Positions 7,766 through 49,565 of a DNA stretch of 64,000 nucleotides are shown here, piece by piece. Each line of letters begins with the position of its first letter. The stretch's first letter is position 1. This DNA comes from Shigella phage ESh26, in sequence record ON528736, one strand, 5' to 3'. The notes beneath the pieces are model-generated. The model did not search any database and was not told the origin of the DNA. It saw nothing but the letters and a program-made list of their open reading frames with translations. The translations under genes and the position numbers were made by a program.

Positions 7766-8392
7766 TTAACCTCTATTCATAAAAGCATTAAAAATTTGGT
7801 CATCAATAGAAACATTTACTTTAGACTGTTTTTCTGATAGTAATTCATATCCACATATTACAATTTTGTGATCAATATCAAAATGCACAGAAGCAATATG
7901 ATTAATGATGTTTTCAGTAAAGTCTAAATCAACATCAATATCTTTTTGACCACAGCCCAAAGGATAAATAATGCGAGTAATTCGATTATCTTTAACAAAG
8001 ATTCCACCGACATACTCTGTGCTGCGTTTAAAGTCTACACGCCGACGAAATGAAAAATATTCAGGCTCTTTATGAGCTCGGCTCATAGGACACAACGAGT
8101 AACTAGAATAAGAGATGTCAAATCCTACGCCTTCAATATGAGCCAAAGTATTACGATTAAACCAATTATAATCGTACGCCAAATCCATTAGATTATAATA
8201 TGTAAAAGGCACCGGATTAACATCATTAGTCACAAGCACGTAATTAGCAATTGCTATAATTTCATTGTTTTTAACGAATACAAACCGTGATTGATGGGAA
8301 TGACCTGGACCCGCGTTTTCACGATTAATGATATAACACTGGGCACCTTTATATTTGTATGTATCTTTGCACTTGTGCATTTGATAGAGCAT
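7766..8392 (-). CDS. hypothetical protein (61.2 position)
   Basis: 208-aa ORF, translationally coupled to sp. Confidence 0.5.
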   Translation of the reverse strand: MLYQMHKCKDTYKYKGAQCYIINRENAGPGHSHQSRFVFVKNNEIIAIANYVLVTNDVNPVPFTYYNLMDLAYDYNWFNRNTLAHIEGVGFDISYSSYSLCPMSRAHKEPEYFSFRRRVDFKRSTEYVGGIFVKDNRITRIIYPLGCGQKDIDVDLDFTENIINHIASVHFDIDHKIVICGYELLSEKQSKVNVSIDDQIFNAFMNRG

Positions 8393-45985: not shown

Positions 45986-46027
45986 ATATACCCCTTTAGT
46001 TAGATAAACCTATTTATAACTTTTGCA

Positions 46028-46609
46028 CTAACCGAGCTTTTTAGTTAATTCATTCCAATGTTTTCTACACAAAGAAACATAAATTTCATCACCAATACAG
46101 ATTTGATTGCCTTCTTTAACTGGTGTTCCATCTTCCATTAATCGAGCTGTCATAATAGCTTTTTTACCACAATGACAAACTGCTTTTAGTTCAATAAGTT
46201 TATCTGCAATCGCCAAAAGTTCTTTAGAACCTTCAAATAATTTTCCAGCGAAATCAGTCCTTAGCCCATAAGCCATAACAGGAACATTATATGTATCAAC
46301 AATTCGGCTTAATTGATGCACCTGTTCAGTTTTTAAAAACTGGGCTTCATCTACAAATACACAATGAATATCTTTTTGTGCTTCAGCCCATTTATAGAAC
46401 TCAAAAATATCCATATCATCCGTAATAATATTCGCTTCCTGTTTAATTCCAATGCGAGAAACGACTTCACAGACAGAATCGCGAGTATCAATAGCAGGCT
46501 TAAGAACTAATACACCCATTCCGCGTTCTTTATAATTATGCGCAGCAGTCAAAAGAGAAGCAGATTTTCCAGCATTCATTGCTGCATAAGTAAAAATTAA
46601 ACTCGCCAT
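46028..46609 (-). CDS. tk: thymidine kinase
   Basis: 193 aa; P-loop AAMNAGKS; zinc ribbon CHCGKKA...C. Confidence 0.9.
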   Translation of the reverse strand: MASLIFTYAAMNAGKSASLLTAAHNYKERGMGVLVLKPAIDTRDSVCEVVSRIGIKQEANIITDDMDIFEFYKWAEAQKDIHCVFVDEAQFLKTEQVHQLSRIVDTYNVPVMAYGLRTDFAGKLFEGSKELLAIADKLIELKAVCHCGKKAIMTARLMEDGTPVKEGNQICIGDEIYVSLCRKHWNELTKKLG

Positions 46610-46618
46610 ATCACCTTC

Positions 46619-46804
46619 TTAAAGCGTATTCACATAAGCTATTAATTCGTTTTCTTTCTTATCAAACCGATCAGCAAATTCTTCCTGTTGTTCGGGAGAT
46701 AGCGGGCCGTATTCATCATAAAAGGTGTTTGCTTCTGTATGCTCATCTAGAAGTTCATGGATAAGCTCAAACAATTTATCTTTTTGTTCTTTGCTTAGGC
46801 TCAC
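46619..46804 (-). CDS. hypothetical protein (tk.1 position)
   Basis: 61-aa acidic ORF. Confidence 0.4.
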   Translation of the reverse strand: MSLSKEQKDKLFELIHELLDEHTEANTFYDEYGPLSPEQQEEFADRFDKKENELIAYVNTL

Positions 46805-46973
46805 AGTATGTCAATCCCCAAAAGTTTTAAAATGACTCGTTTCTGATTCATAACCGCTACGATTGAATGACCGTTGGGGTCTTTTTGACCCGATCCAATT
46901 ATAAATCCTTTTTGTGCAGAAAGTTCAATCAAAACATCGAGTTCACGTAATAGTTGATATTTTAAATCATCAT

Positions 46974-47186
46974 TCATTTTGGTTTACCTTCTTTAACGAA
47001 ATCAGGATAAGGATAAAATCCTGAATAAAATCCTTCACCTTTATGATTGATGCATCCTTTATTAGAACAATAGCACCAATAATCGAAATCACAAGCCATT
47101 TCATCATTACATAAAGCAAAAACAACCGGCCATTCACACTTTTCGCAGTGGGCATTTTTAAGAATACTAGTTTGGCTCATAACCAT
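46974..47186 (-). CDS. Cys-rich small protein, putative zinc binding
   Basis: HCEKCEW...CNDEMACDFDYWCYCSNKGCINH; start set at internal Met. Confidence 0.45.
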   Translation of the reverse strand: MVMSQTSILKNAHCEKCEWPVVFALCNDEMACDFDYWCYCSNKGCINHKGEGFYSGFYPYPDFVKEGKPK

Positions 47187-47389
47187 GTAACCTTTAAGCA
47201 ATATTCTTCTACGTGCTGTTTACGACCTTTCTTATCAATAAAGGTATATTCAACGAATGTTCCAATATAGTCTTTATCTACATCATGTGGACTATTAATT
47301 GGACATTTAGTACGGCAAATGCGTTCCCATTGACGAATAATTTCCACTTTGTTTTTAGGATCAAACGGATGCGGGTAATGTACTTTCAT
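47177..47389 (-). CDS. hypothetical protein
   Basis: 70-aa ORF. Confidence 0.4.
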   Translation of the reverse strand: MKVHYPHPFDPKNKVEIIRQWERICRTKCPINSPHDVDKDYIGTFVEYTFIDKKGRKQHVEEYCLKVTWL

Positions 47390-47840
47390 AATCCACCACT
47401 ATTAAATCAATATCAGGAGTAAACATGTCGATTAATTTAGAAACCTTATCCCAATCGCCGCCAGCAATACCGCAACCTATGCGTGGAATGTAAATTACTG
47501 GTTTAAACAAAAGGGTTTCTGCCTGTAGATTTAATTCTATCATGCAGTTTACTAAAGCACCATAATCAAGATTAGGACCCGGTTCGTATTGCGTATACAA
47601 ATTATAGCACATACTAAATCCTGTAGGATTATGTTTAAAAACAATAGACATATCGCCTAATTTATCACGAGAACCGTACTCGGTAGTGGTTTTATCTATT
47701 TCTAAAATTTTGGGATAGGCTCTTGCTAATTGACCTGCTACGCCAGAGCCCATTGTGTGAAAGCAATTGCACCCGTGCGCAATAATATTACCTTGAAGAA
47801 ATAGGGCGACAATATCGCCCTTGATATATTTTACAATCAT
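47361..47840 (-). CDS. macro-domain-like protein (ADP-ribose binding/processing)
   Basis: 159 aa; IKGDIVA...IIAHGCNCFHTMGSGVAGQL and IYIPRIGCGIAGGDWD resemble macro motifs. Confidence 0.5.
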   Translation of the reverse strand: MIVKYIKGDIVALFLQGNIIAHGCNCFHTMGSGVAGQLARAYPKILEIDKTTTEYGSRDKLGDMSIVFKHNPTGFSMCYNLYTQYEPGPNLDYGALVNCMIELNLQAETLLFKPVIYIPRIGCGIAGGDWDKVSKLIDMFTPDIDLIVVDYESTLPASV

Positions 47841-48178
47841 CTAGTACTCAATCCTCGATTATAAGAATCTACTAAACGGTCAACCATTGAATGACAAGCG
47901 GCTTTATCTTTCTCCTCCGCAACTGAACATTCTAAGGTATTCCACTTTTTAGCATATCGTTTTAACAATGTATCATTTTTGTATCTGCTTGATTTATCTC
48001 TTTCTCCGTCTTTATATGCATATATTAATTTCTGTGCAAATTCAGCTTGGCATGCTTTATTTTTCCCACAATAATCCGCGGCGGTACGGTTTACATACTC
48101 TCTAATTTCAGTATATGATGTATCTGCTAACGCAGAAAATGAAATTAATCCTATACATAAAACCAAAATTTTAGTCAT
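47837..48178 (-). CDS. secreted/periplasmic protein
   Basis: 113 aa; signal peptide MTKILVLCIGLISFSALADT; paired cysteines. Confidence 0.5.
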   Translation of the reverse strand: MTKILVLCIGLISFSALADTSYTEIREYVNRTAADYCGKNKACQAEFAQKLIYAYKDGERDKSSRYKNDTLLKRYAKKWNTLECSVAEEKDKAACHSMVDRLVDSYNRGLSTR

Positions 48179-48716
48179 TTACTATTTCCAAAAGTTTATT
48201 ATTTTTAAGGTAATTAGCCTTTTCTAGGACTTCAGAAGCATATTTAGAACCTGCTTTAACATTCCATCCCGAATTATAAGAGGATATTGCTTTTCTTATA
48301 TCACCCTTATGTATATTTAACCAATAAGAAAGTTCAATGTACGCCCAGGAAGCTGAATTGGACCGTTTATTCAACATTCTTTTTATTTCAGCATCGGTCA
48401 TATTATAACCAAGTTCCTTGACTCTCGCTCGCATAGTAGGCAAATAATTTTGGAACATTCCATAGGCATGATGCTTTGGTTTAGATTTTAAATTAACTCC
48501 GGCAGAGCTTTCTTGCCATAAAATAGCAGCCATTATATGACCCAATCCGCTCTTGTGGATATTTTTGTGTGTTTTATATTTTCCATCCTTAGAAAATTGT
48601 TCCCCGAATTGATATGCGTAGCGCATGTTATCGAGTTGGACATTACTGAAAGTATGCTCGGAGCTATGTGCCATCATTGAAATGGCCAATAGACCAGCGA
48701 GTAGTGCTTTTCTCAT
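48171..48716 (-). CDS. secreted lytic-transglycosylase-like protein
   Basis: 181 aa; signal peptide; SLT-like WQESS, YGMFQN, SSYNSGW. Confidence 0.55.
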   Translation of the reverse strand: MRKALLAGLLAISMMAHSSEHTFSNVQLDNMRYAYQFGEQFSKDGKYKTHKNIHKSGLGHIMAAILWQESSAGVNLKSKPKHHAYGMFQNYLPTMRARVKELGYNMTDAEIKRMLNKRSNSASWAYIELSYWLNIHKGDIRKAISSYNSGWNVKAGSKYASEVLEKANYLKNNKLLEIVND

Positions 48717-48723
48717 GCTTACC

Positions 48724-49185
48724 TCATTGAGTTTTAATTACTGCTTTAGAAGCCTTTCCTGGTAAACGACGACTGTTGATAATTGCCATCCTACATTGAA
48801 GCGACGGGTCTTTGAACTTCGCATTAGGTTTACAAACTGTAAATCCAAGCCAAAGATTTCCATCTGTGATTTCTAAACGTCCAGGGCGATATTCAACCCC
48901 ATCAATAAAATCCTCGTCAATGTCAGGACGCGGAGGCATACTCAGGAATTCATTAACTTCTAAAACATGGTCTTTTATTTTGTGGAATAATTCAAAAACA
49001 TATGTCTCATCAATCTCCCGTTGAATTGCACGATCAAGAAGATGCTGAGAATATTTTAGATGAAACGATGAGACCCCTGCTGCTTTTGATGCCTCACGAA
49101 TCTCATTGTTAATTTGACGAAACTCCGACTCAAAGTGACGACGAAGCTTATTTCGACGGATAAAAACTTCTGTGTTGATAGTCAT
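48724..49185 (-). CDS. regB: endoribonuclease RegB
   Basis: 153 aa, T4 RegB size and position; early promoter 49213-49242. Confidence 0.7.
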   Translation of the reverse strand: MTINTEVFIRRNKLRRHFESEFRQINNEIREASKAAGVSSFHLKYSQHLLDRAIQREIDETYVFELFHKIKDHVLEVNEFLSMPPRPDIDEDFIDGVEYRPGRLEITDGNLWLGFTVCKPNAKFKDPSLQCRMAIINSRRLPGKASKAVIKTQ

Positions 49186-49212
49186 GTTATTCTCCTCTTA
49201 ACTGATAGAAAA

Positions 49213-49242
49213 ATTATACCACAGTCAAGAGGAAAAGTAAAC
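49213..49242 (-). promoter_or_regulatory. early promoter upstream of regB
   Basis: gtaaac 49237-49242, attata 49213-49218. Confidence 0.55.
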
Positions 49243-49244
49243 AG

Positions 49245-49565
49245 TTATTCTTTAAATCTAATCAATTTATTCATAGACTTTGAAACTTCTGCACGGACCT
49301 CATGTAGGTTTTTAAGCTGTTCAAGACGCTGCTCATAGTAAGCAATTTCATCTTCTTCGAGACAGTCCTGTGAATCTTCTTTAAGATAACGTGCATAATC
49401 CTGGAAAGCTTTACGGACTACTTCTTGGAAGTCATCAAGACTTTGAATTTTCTTAGGAGCAACAGATACACGACGAGGGGCAGTATAATACTCATAACCA
49501 AACCCTGCGCTTAATTGAGCCATTAATATTTTTCCTCTGGTTGGAACACAGCACGACAAGCCCAC
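49245..49565 (-). CDS. hypothetical protein (vs.x)
   Basis: 106-aa ORF. Confidence 0.45.

What the first reader, a model, noticed from the sequence alone, without database searches (positions are those of the whole stretch)
47361..47840. Macro-domain-like protein near tk
The ORF shows the N-terminal KGDIVA...IIAHGCNCFHTMGSGVAGQL and later IYIPRIGCGIAGGDWD segments that parallel the GDIT...NAAN...GGGV and ...G.G..G... signatures of macro domains, which bind or hydrolyse ADP-ribose. The same phage encodes the ADP-ribosyltransferases ModA and ModB at 1693-2915. The macro protein could reverse or read ADP-ribosylation, or counter host ADP-ribosylating defences.
Basis: partly seen in the sequence, partly recalled or inferred. 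Interest (0 to 1): 0.55.

Follow-up and report, generated by a model that had tools for sequence, protein, structure and literature searches.

The report
T4-type anti-DarTG2 macrodomain gene (tk.4/adfM)
The ORF is a genuine macrodomain (ADP-ribose-removing) protein, the counterpart of phage T4 gene tk.4, which a 2025 preprint showed protects T4 from the bacterial DNA-ADP-ribosylating defence DarTG2, so the finding is correct but already known.

Summary
The 159-aa ORF at 47361-47840 (minus strand) exists exactly as described. It is a macrodomain: Pfam Macro scores above its curated cut-off, the AlphaFold model has pLDDT 94.9, and Foldseek matches TARG1, BT1257, Poa1p and DarG.

The window is a T4-like phage (Tequatrovirus). 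The ORF lies between tk.3 and vs, the position of T4 tk.4, and is 58% identical to T4 Tk.4.

A 2025 preprint (HIDEN-SEQ) showed that deleting T4 tk.4 sensitises T4 to DarTG2, and renamed the gene adfM. Nothing supports the suggested link to ModA/ModB, which are real but 44 kb away.

- **Catalytic site:** the family has an invariant Gln84 where DarG and TARG1 have their catalytic lysine. SCO6735, which removes thymidine-linked ADP-ribose, also has an essential Gln there. The mechanism is therefore probably SCO6735-like rather than DarG-like.
- **Allele replacement:** this allele sits in DNA otherwise 96-100% identical to T4. At least three allele classes circulate.
- **Hairpin:** a conserved hairpin lies at codons 7-13.

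The gene itself is already known, so interest is low to moderate.

The parts
47361..47840 (-). tk.4 / adfM-type gene: 159-aa single-domain macrodomain protein of the ALC1/TARG1-like class. Key codons: His22 at 47775-47777, Asn25 at 47766-47768, Gln84 at 47589-47591, and the P119-W130 loop (PRIGCGIAGGDW).
   Evidence: ORF found. Pfam Macro scores above its cut-off and PHROG 335 matches at 4e-71. It is 58% identical over 155 aa to T4 Tk.4, E 8e-71, with the same tk.3 | tk.4 | vs order. AF2 pLDDT is 94.9 and Foldseek matches TARG1, BT1257, Poa1p and DarG. Invariant residues come and residue equivalences. Codons were read.
47852..47856 (-). GAGGA ribosome-binding-like motif, 11 nt upstream of the ATG. 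The ATG overlaps the vs stop codon (ATGA at 47840-47837), which suggests translational coupling with vs.
   Evidence: Read directly from the sequence (ORF ends). The T4 record X04567 annotates a potential ribosome-binding site at the same place for ORF 60.5. Function is inferred.
47858..47863 (-). TATAAT -10-like hexamer, 17 nt upstream of the ATG. Its function is not established.
   Evidence: Sequence. X04567 annotates 'pot. -10 region (ORF 60.5)' at the homologous position and describes the whole stretch as an 'early region'. The generic promoter scan did not exceed the shuffled expectation.
47803..47821 (-). Stable hairpin AGGGCGAUAUUGUCGCCCU (8 bp, about -13 kcal/mol) followed by a U-rich tract, lying inside codons 7-13 of the gene. 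Role unknown: possibly an attenuator or terminator for vs transcripts, or an mRNA stability element. It coincides with the point where the window and T4 alleles start to diverge.
   Evidence: Flagged as terminator-like. Identical in T4. In 36 distinct homologous 5' ends, 73.6% of cells pair. The covariation score is 0.239, against 0.160 +/- 0.017 for shuffles (0 of 500 reach it) and at most 0.159 for slid controls. No Rfam family matches. The signal is suggestive only, because codon constraints confound it.

Best explanation
This is the orthologue, as a diverged allele, of phage T4 tk.4 (adfM). It is a small stand-alone macrodomain enzyme, probably made early in infection, that protects replicating phage DNA from the DarTG2 toxin-antitoxin defence.

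Proposed mechanism:
1. When DarT2 is unleashed, it attaches ADP-ribose to thymidines in single-stranded DNA and blocks replication (from the literature).
2. The macrodomain binds the ADP-ribose in the cleft formed by the H22-G23-C24-N25...G31-S32-G33 loop and the P119-R-I-G-C-G-I-A-G-G128 loop.
3. It hydrolyses the thymine-ribose bond and restores normal DNA.

The family has an invariant Gln84 where DarG and TARG1 have their catalytic lysine. Chemistry is therefore most likely of the SCO6735 type: Gln positions the substrate and a water network, with no lysine nucleophile or base.

Status of each step:
- **Shown here:** the ORF, the fold, class membership, orthology and synteny with T4 tk.4, the Gln substitution, and purifying selection.
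- **Shown by others for T4 Tk.4:** loss of the gene sensitises the phage to DarTG2.
- **Inferred:** that this 58%-identical allele does the same, that it acts by hydrolysing dT-ADPr on DNA, and that it is expressed early.
For: - **Fold and family:**
- **Orthology:** 58% identity over the full length, E 8e-71. Gene order is identical and the flanks are 96-100% identical to T4 at the nucleotide level.
- **Genetics on T4 tk.4:** it was the only significant hit on a DarTG2 host, and a clean knockout is sensitised. T4 lacking adfA and adfN remains DarTG2-resistant, so a further factor was expected.
- **Catalytic site:**
  - Q84 aligns with SCO6735 Q85, TARG1 K84, Taq DarG K80 and the PhiKZ AdfM Lys, and is invariant in 55 family members.
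  - H22 and N25 align with SCO6735 H24 and N27, and N25 also with PhiKZ AdfM N23.
- **Precedent:**
  - SCO6735 lacks the Lys/Asp residues. It nevertheless removes dT-ADPr efficiently but not dG-ADPr, rescues DarT toxicity, and is dead as Q85A or Q85E.
  - The PhiKZ macrodomain AdfM removes DarT2-made T-ADPr from an oligonucleotide in vitro.
- **Conservation:** dN/dS is 0.03-0.13 within the allele class.
- **Consensus motif:** this allele keeps the family consensus IGCGIAGGDW, which T4 itself has changed to IGAGIGKGNW.
Against: - No biochemistry exists for any Tk.4-type protein. The preprint itself calls enzymatic removal 'likely'.
- This allele differs from the tested T4 protein at 42% of positions.
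- It lacks the 5-6-residue 'mobile loop' and the Lys34 and Lys89 that SCO6735 uses for DNA binding.
- The protein is acidic, pI 5.0 against about 9 for SCO6735 and TARG1. However, the DNA-active PhiKZ AdfM is equally acidic, pI 5.05.
- The DarG family models score it far below threshold: 28.9 bits against a cut-off of 250.
- Iyer et al. argued that phage macrodomains mostly target small ADP-ribose derivatives.
Confidence: 0.7

Rival explanations
1. It hydrolyses low-molecular-weight ADP-ribose derivatives rather than a macromolecular adduct. Candidates are ADP-ribose-1''-phosphate, O-acetyl-ADP-ribose, and ADPr-derived immune signals or toxins. This is the meaning of the legacy 'A1pp phosphatase' or 'Poa1p-like' annotation.
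For: T4 RefSeq and PHROG 335 label it 'phosphatase'. It resembles yeast Poa1p in sequence and fold. Iyer et al. 2022 argue that stand-alone phage macrodomains mainly counter soluble ADPr derivatives.
Against: The label is inherited from the old domain name and does not come from an assay. The only phenotype known for the T4 orthologue is specific to DarTG2, a DNA-modifying system. The closest characterised Gln-type enzyme acts on DNA and on protein adducts. The two activities are not mutually exclusive.
Confidence: 0.12
2. It neutralises DarT2 mainly without catalysis, either by binding and inhibiting the toxin or by sequestering the ADP-ribosylated product.
For: Catalytically dead SCO6735 Q85A still inhibits DarT in vitro, more strongly than DarG K80A or TARG1 K84A. 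The canonical catalytic Lys is absent here.
Against: The protein has a single 159-aa domain and lacks the C-terminal DarT-binding domain of DarG. Active-site residues H22, N25, Q84 and the Gly-rich loops are invariant across distant relatives, which is what an enzyme would show. Stand-alone bacterial relatives have no DarT neighbour.
Confidence: 0.08
3. One reading: it erases or reads ADP-ribosylation laid down by the phage's own Alt/ModA/ModB transferases, on RNA polymerase, on other host proteins, or as RNAylation marks. That would make the phage's modification of the host reversible.
For: ModA and ModB are indeed encoded in the same window at 1693-2915. TARG1-class enzymes can remove protein mono-ADP-ribose, and SCO6735 does so.
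Against: There is no genomic linkage: the genes are 44 kb apart. From general knowledge of these enzymes, Alt and Mod modify arginine, a linkage that ARH-type enzymes cleave and ALC1/TARG1-class macrodomains do not. tk.4 was dispensable except on DarTG2 hosts. A mutant T4 clone deposited as a complete genome carries a split tk.4. The same family occurs in about 2,700 phage records of many genera; whether those phages carry Mod-type transferases was not checked.
Confidence: 0.05
4. It reverses ADP-ribosylation by a different host defence transferase, acting on RNA or protein, and the two or three allele classes track different targets.
For: The alleles are strongly diverged within otherwise identical DNA. 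Defences that ADP-ribosylate RNA exist, such as CmdTAC (abstract of PMC11618068).
Against: CmdTAC defends robustly against T-even phages, so Tk.4 evidently does not neutralise it. The catalytic-site residues are identical between the alleles.
Confidence: 0.05

Closest known systems
Phage T4 Tk.4 = AdfM (anti-DarT factor Macrodomain), NP_049723; bioRxiv 10.1101/2025.11.20.689424
   Same: Same locus between tk.3 and vs, with the start overlapping the vs stop. Same length class (159 vs 155 aa). Collinear with 58% identity. H22, N25 and Q84 are identical, as are the first 14 residues and about 80 nt including the 5' hairpin.
   Different: 42% of residues differ. The phosphate-loop motif is IGCGIAGGDW here, matching the family consensus, and IGAGIGKGNW in T4. 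The gene body is only 50-63% identical at the nucleotide level, while the flanks are 96-100% identical. This allele has not itself been tested against DarTG2.
Streptomyces coelicolor SCO6735 (PDB 5E3B) and Bacteroides BT1257 (2FG1/2AFC): the Gln-type ALC1-like macrodomains
   Same: Stand-alone proteins of about 155 aa with Gln at the catalytic position, an AH-x-CN motif and a PRIGCG(L/I)AGG-W loop. BT1257 is the best PDB sequence match. SCO6735 cleaves dT-ADPr made by DarT and rescues DarT toxicity.
   Different: Only about 26-30% identical. Tk.4 lacks the 5-6-residue extension of the mobile loop and the Lys34, Lys89 and Lys93 implicated in DNA binding. It is acidic rather than strongly basic.
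DarG (DarG2) antitoxin macrodomain (Thermus aquaticus 5M31/5M3E, M. tuberculosis 5M3I)
   Same: Same fold class (TM about 0.73) and presumably the same substrate, thymidine-linked ADP-ribose on ssDNA.
   Different: DarG has the catalytic Lys80 in an FPTK motif where Tk.4 has YTQ. DarG has a VNTVN motif rather than AHGCN, a C-terminal DarT-binding domain, and is encoded next to DarT (DUF4433). Tk.4 has none of these. It scores 28.9 bits against a cut-off of 250 on the NCBIfam DarG model.
PhiKZ gp104, also named 'AdfM' (Cell Rep 2026, PMC13309987)
   Same: A phage stand-alone macrodomain that counters DarTG2. It is acidic, and its Asn23 aligns with N25 here.
   Different: It is a true DarG-type macrodomain (FPTKDNW, with Lys retained), is imported into the phage nucleus, and has been shown biochemically to remove T-ADPr. 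Tk.4 belongs to a different subfamily. The shared name hides two independent acquisitions.
Human TARG1/OARD1 (4J5S)
   Same: Best structural match (E 6e-10, TM 0.73-0.83). TARG1 also reverses DarT thymidine ADP-ribosylation (abstract of PMC8501950).
   Different: The TARG1 catalytic dyad Lys84/Asp125 corresponds to Gln84/Ala126 here.

Membership tests
Macro domain superfamily (Pfam PF01661) | Profile score at or above the curated gathering threshold over the whole domain | tested here: met
   33.8 bits against a cut-off of 22, E 3.7e-8, covering profile positions 2-117 of 118.
Macro domain superfamily (Pfam PF01661) | Three-layer alpha/beta/alpha macro fold | tested here: met
   AF2 pLDDT 94.9 and pTM 0.89, with alternating strands and helices. 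Foldseek probability is 1.00 to many solved macrodomains.
Macro domain superfamily (Pfam PF01661) | Binds ADP-ribose | not testable with these tools
   Only inferred, from the conserved Gly-rich loops G31-S-G33 and G122-C-G-I-A-G-G128.
ALC1/TARG1-like class of macrodomains | Closest sequence and structure neighbours are TARG1, DarG, SCO6735/BT1257 and ALC1, rather than MacroD or PARG types | tested here: met
   Profile hits: BT1257 2e-19, TARG1 3e-17, SCO6735 2e-15, Poa1p 2e-14, DarG 5e-12. MacroD-like and viral macros score 3e-3 or weaker. The Foldseek ranking is the same.
T4 Tk.4/AdfM orthologous group | Full-length homology and the same genomic position (tk.3 | tk.4 | vs) in a Tequatrovirus | tested here: met
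   58% identity over 155 aa, E 8e-71. Synteny. PHROG 335 at 4e-71. Flanks are 96-100% identical to T4.
T4 Tk.4/AdfM orthologous group | Needed for plating on DarTG2-expressing hosts | not testable with these tools
   Shown only for the T4 allele.
DarG (DarG2) antitoxin | Catalytic lysine (Taq DarG Lys80) in the PTK motif | tested here: not met
   Gln84 occupies this column and is invariant in 55 relatives.
DarG (DarG2) antitoxin | C-terminal DarT-binding domain and a neighbouring DarT (DUF4433) gene | tested here: not met
   The protein is a 159-aa single domain with vs and tk.3 as neighbours. Compare a real DarTG locus, L003. The NCBIfam DarG model gives 28.9 bits against a cut-off of 250.
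SCO6735/BT1257 Gln-type subclass | Gln at the position of the DarG/TARG1 lysine, plus the His24 and Asn27 equivalents | tested here: met
   Q84, H22 and N25 align with Q85, H24 and N27. Their roles in SCO6735 are described.
SCO6735/BT1257 Gln-type subclass | Mobile loop about five residues longer, carrying Lys89 and Lys93 | tested here: not met
   A 6-column gap sits opposite SCO6735 and BT1257. The loop reads QYEPGPN, with no lysines.
SCO6735/BT1257 Gln-type subclass | Hydrolysis of thymidine-linked ADP-ribose on ssDNA | not testable with these tools
   Requires an enzyme assay.
Poa1p-type ADP-ribose-1''-phosphate phosphatase (source of the 'phosphatase' annotation) | Phosphatase activity on Appr-1''-p | not tested
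   Only sequence and fold similarity to Poa1p is seen: E 2e-9 over the N-terminal half and TM about 0.7.

The most novel reading that the evidence does not exclude
Tk.4-type proteins may form a third mechanistic subclass of DNA de-ADP-ribosylating macrodomains: Gln-dependent like SCO6735, but with the short loop of DarG/TARG1 and an acidic surface. In that reading, the sharply diverged alleles swapped into otherwise identical T-even genomes (window-type, T4-type and an approximately 84% T4-like type) are specificity variants driven by an arms race with different DarT2 toxins or other nucleic-acid ADP-ribosyltransferases. The conserved 5' hairpin might then act as a regulatory element or as the recombination boundary of this cassette.
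Probability: 0.2. Interest if true: 0.5.

Novelty: already known. Interest (0 to 1): 0.25.

Why it matters
DNA ADP-ribosylation by DarTG is a widespread anti-phage defence, and T-even phages stack several counter-measures against it. This window alone carries two, adfA (61.2) and tk.4/adfM.

The gene's identity and role were already published for T4, so the finding opens no new question.

- T4-type AdfM is not a 'DarG-like' enzyme in the catalytic sense. It has Gln where DarG has Lys.
- It is a different lineage from the PhiKZ protein that has been given the same name.
- It exists as strongly diverged alleles exchanged between near-identical genomes. That pattern is typical of genes in an arms race and can be tested by allele swaps.

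Tried and rejected
- **Truncated DarG.** Rejected: the catalytic Lys, the C-terminal domain and a DarT neighbour are all missing, and the DarG models score far below threshold.
- **Surface charge as an argument against a DNA substrate.** The protein is acidic (pI 5.0), but so is PhiKZ AdfM (pI 5.05), which cleaves T-ADPr DNA in vitro. The argument was dropped.
- **DarT neighbours of bacterial relatives.** The Pelagimonas homologue (40% identity) is a stand-alone chromosomal gene with no DUF4433 nearby. Only one locus was examined.
- **Promoter and terminator scan.** Counts do not exceed the shuffled expectation. Only the intragenic hairpin was followed up.
- **Rfam search of 46000-49500.** Nothing meaningful was found; the one hit has E 0.79.
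- **First structure job.** It was rerun without that row.
- **Residue-level structural superposition.** Model coordinates are not exposed, so residue equivalences rest on HMM and MAFFT alignments.
- **Poa1p residue at the Gln84 column.** It could not be read, because only partial Poa1p alignments were printed.
- **Other literature on T4 Tk.4.** Searches found only the HIDEN-SEQ preprint and older genome papers.

Full report
**Observation**

The ORF exists exactly as described. It runs 47361..47840 on the minus strand, starts with ATG and encodes 159 aa. The translation is MIVKYIKGDIVALFLQGNIIAHGCNCFHTMGSGVAGQL...VIYIPRIGCGIAGGDWD.... Its ATG overlaps the stop codon of the upstream gene (ATGA). 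A GAGGA motif lies 11 nt upstream.

Pfam Macro (PF01661) matches over essentially the whole profile and above the curated threshold: 33.8 bits against 22, E 3.7e-8. PHROG 335 matches at 4e-71.

**Context**

The window is a Tequatrovirus. The 3.2 kb around the ORF is 99% identical to Escherichia phage A6-6 and 97-98% identical to hundreds of T4-like phages. Some of those records already call this ORF 'macro domain protein' or 'phosphatase'.

The gene order is regB, vs.1, vs, this ORF, tk.3, then tk, as in T4, where the gene in this slot is tk.4. The protein is 58% identical to T4 Tk.4 over 155 collinear residues, E 8e-71.

They lie 44 kb away.

**Fold and class**

I built a 55-sequence family alignment from a search of 5.8 billion proteins. 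It gave an AlphaFold2 model with pLDDT 94.9 and pTM 0.89.

- Foldseek against the PDB ranks TARG1 first (E 6e-10, TM 0.73-0.83). BT1257, Poa1p, and Mtb and Taq DarG follow, with coronavirus Mac1 lower.
- The family profile gives the same picture by sequence: BT1257 2e-19, TARG1 3e-17, SCO6735 2e-15, Poa1p 2e-14, DarG 5e-12.

So this is an ALC1/TARG1-like macrodomain.

**What is already known**

A November 2025 preprint (HIDEN-SEQ, 10.1101/2025.11.20.689424) screened a T4 transposon library on E. coli expressing DarTG2.

- tk.4 was the single significant hit.
- A clean tk.4 knockout was sensitised to DarTG2.
- The authors renamed the gene adfM. They stated that enzymatic removal of ADP-ribose from DNA 'seems likely'.

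Earlier work had shown that T4 lacking adfA (61.2) and adfN (30.3) is still DarTG2-resistant, so another factor was predicted. No biochemistry on a Tk.4-type protein was found.

**Mechanism**

HMM and MAFFT alignments place Gln84 of this protein in the column of TARG1 Lys84, Taq DarG Lys80 and the Lys of PhiKZ gp104. The reference sequences were recovered from PDB alignments and from a paper's methods. TARG1 Asp125 aligns with Ala126.

Gln84 is invariant in all 55 family members, as are G8, H22, G23, N25, C26, G33, A35, D49, N80, Y82, P119, G122, G124 and W130.

The same Lys-to-Gln difference defines SCO6735 and BT1257. For SCO6735 it has been shown that:

- the enzyme removes DarT-made thymidine-ADP-ribose faster than DarG or TARG1, but does not remove guanine-ADPr;
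- it rescues DarT toxicity;
- Q85A and Q85E are dead;
- a water-mediated mechanism was proposed, in which Gln positions the substrate.

Tk.4 also shares H22 and N25 with SCO6735 H24 and N27. N25 additionally matches PhiKZ AdfM N23, whose mutation lowers activity.

Tk.4 differs from SCO6735 in two ways. It lacks the extended lysine-bearing mobile loop, and it is acidic. The acidity is shared with the DNA-active PhiKZ AdfM.

My best reading is a Gln-type hydrolase of thymidine-linked ADP-ribose on DNA, with confidence about 0.7. Fold, class, orthology and the active-site make-up are shown here. The substrate and the phenotype of this allele are inferred.

**Two different 'AdfM' proteins**

PhiKZ gp104 was independently named AdfM and has been shown to cleave T-ADPr in vitro. 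It keeps the DarG motifs VNVVG and FPTKDNW, so it is DarG-type.

Tk.4 is not DarG-type. DarG models score it at 28.9 bits against a cut-off of 250. It has no DarT-binding domain or DarT neighbour, whereas a real DarTG locus does. The closest bacterial relative examined is a stand-alone gene.

**Allele replacement**

Against T4, the flanking genes tk, vs, vs.1 and regB are 96-100% identical at the nucleotide level. The tk.4 body drops to 50-63%.

- The first ~80 nt are identical.
- tk.3 is 84-91% identical.
- The tk.1/tk.2 stretch is rearranged and carries an extra ORF.

In the phage collection, 312 records carry the window-type allele at 90% amino-acid identity or more. 224 carry the T4 type at 90% or more, and 159 carry a type 80-90% identical to T4.

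Within its class the gene is under strong purifying selection, with dN/dS 0.03-0.13. The catalytic-site residues are the same in both alleles. The window allele keeps the family consensus IGCGIAGGDW, where T4 has IGAGIGKGNW.

**Rivals**

- A role on small ADP-ribose derivatives cannot be excluded. This is the origin of the 'phosphatase' label and is the view of Iyer et al..
- Non-catalytic DarT2 inhibition is possible, given the SCO6735 Q85A result. The invariant active site makes it less likely.
- Reversal of Alt/ModA/ModB marks has no support.
- CmdTAC-type RNA ADP-ribosylation is evidently not countered, because T-even phages are sensitive to it.

**Verdict**

The gene is already known as T4 tk.4/adfM, and many GenBank records annotate it as a macro domain protein. 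The residual interest lies in three things: the Gln-type active site, which contradicts the 'DarG-like' label; the allele cassette; and an unexplained conserved hairpin at the 5' end of the gene.

Noticed in passing
window 47803-47821 (minus strand), inside codons 7-13 of tk.4: A stable 8-bp hairpin, AGGGCGAUAUUGUCGCCCU (about -13 kcal/mol), followed by a U-rich tract. It is terminator-like although it lies about 20 nt into the ORF. It is identical in T4, and the two alleles diverge immediately after it. Across 36 homologous 5' ends the pairs covary above the shuffled and slid controls. Examples are G-C to A-U through two synonymous changes in L022 and L026, and C-G to A-U in L035. Lineages encoding VKL or VEL instead of VAL lack it. 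Its role is unknown.
   Followed up: partly
window 46560-47760 compared with T4 (L002): Mosaic structure: tk, vs, vs.1 and regB are 96-100% identical to T4, but the tk.4 body is only 50-63% identical and the tk.1/tk.2 stretch is replaced. At least three tk.4 allele classes circulate in T4-like phages: 312, 224 and 159 records.
   Followed up: partly
window 7769-8392 (minus strand): Homologue of T4 gp61.2 (AdfA, the anti-DarT factor A described in the DarTG1 paper read), 94% identical over 208 aa. The window therefore encodes two anti-DarT factors. adfN (30.3) is discussed in the literature but was not searched for in this window.
   Followed up: partly
window 46974-47201 (minus strand): A 75-aa Cys-rich ORF (CEKCEW...CNDEMACDFDYWCYCSNKGCINH), PHROG 2306, function unknown. 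This window has four small ORFs between tk and tk.4, where T4 has three (tk.1-tk.3); this ORF falls in the stretch that has no counterpart in T4. It looks like a small zinc-binding protein.
   Followed up: no
locus L006 (OL964745.1, mutant T4 clone T4_7t1): In this mutant T4 genome tk.4 is annotated as two separate 'macro domain-containing protein' ORFs, so the gene is disrupted. The clone was nevertheless deposited as a complete phage genome, which fits tk.4 being non-essential.
   Followed up: no
literature: PhiKZ gp104 versus T4 Tk.4: Two unrelated macrodomain subfamilies have both been named AdfM in 2025-2026. PhiKZ gp104 is DarG-type with the catalytic Lys. T4 Tk.4 is Gln-type.
   Followed up: yes
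window 48171-48716 (minus strand), vs.1: The 181-aa protein upstream of vs has an N-terminal signal-like segment. It shows weak similarity to lytic transglycosylase or tail lysin families (PHROG 2013, E 8e-5). Some GenBank records mislabel it as 'RegB domain'.
   Followed up: no
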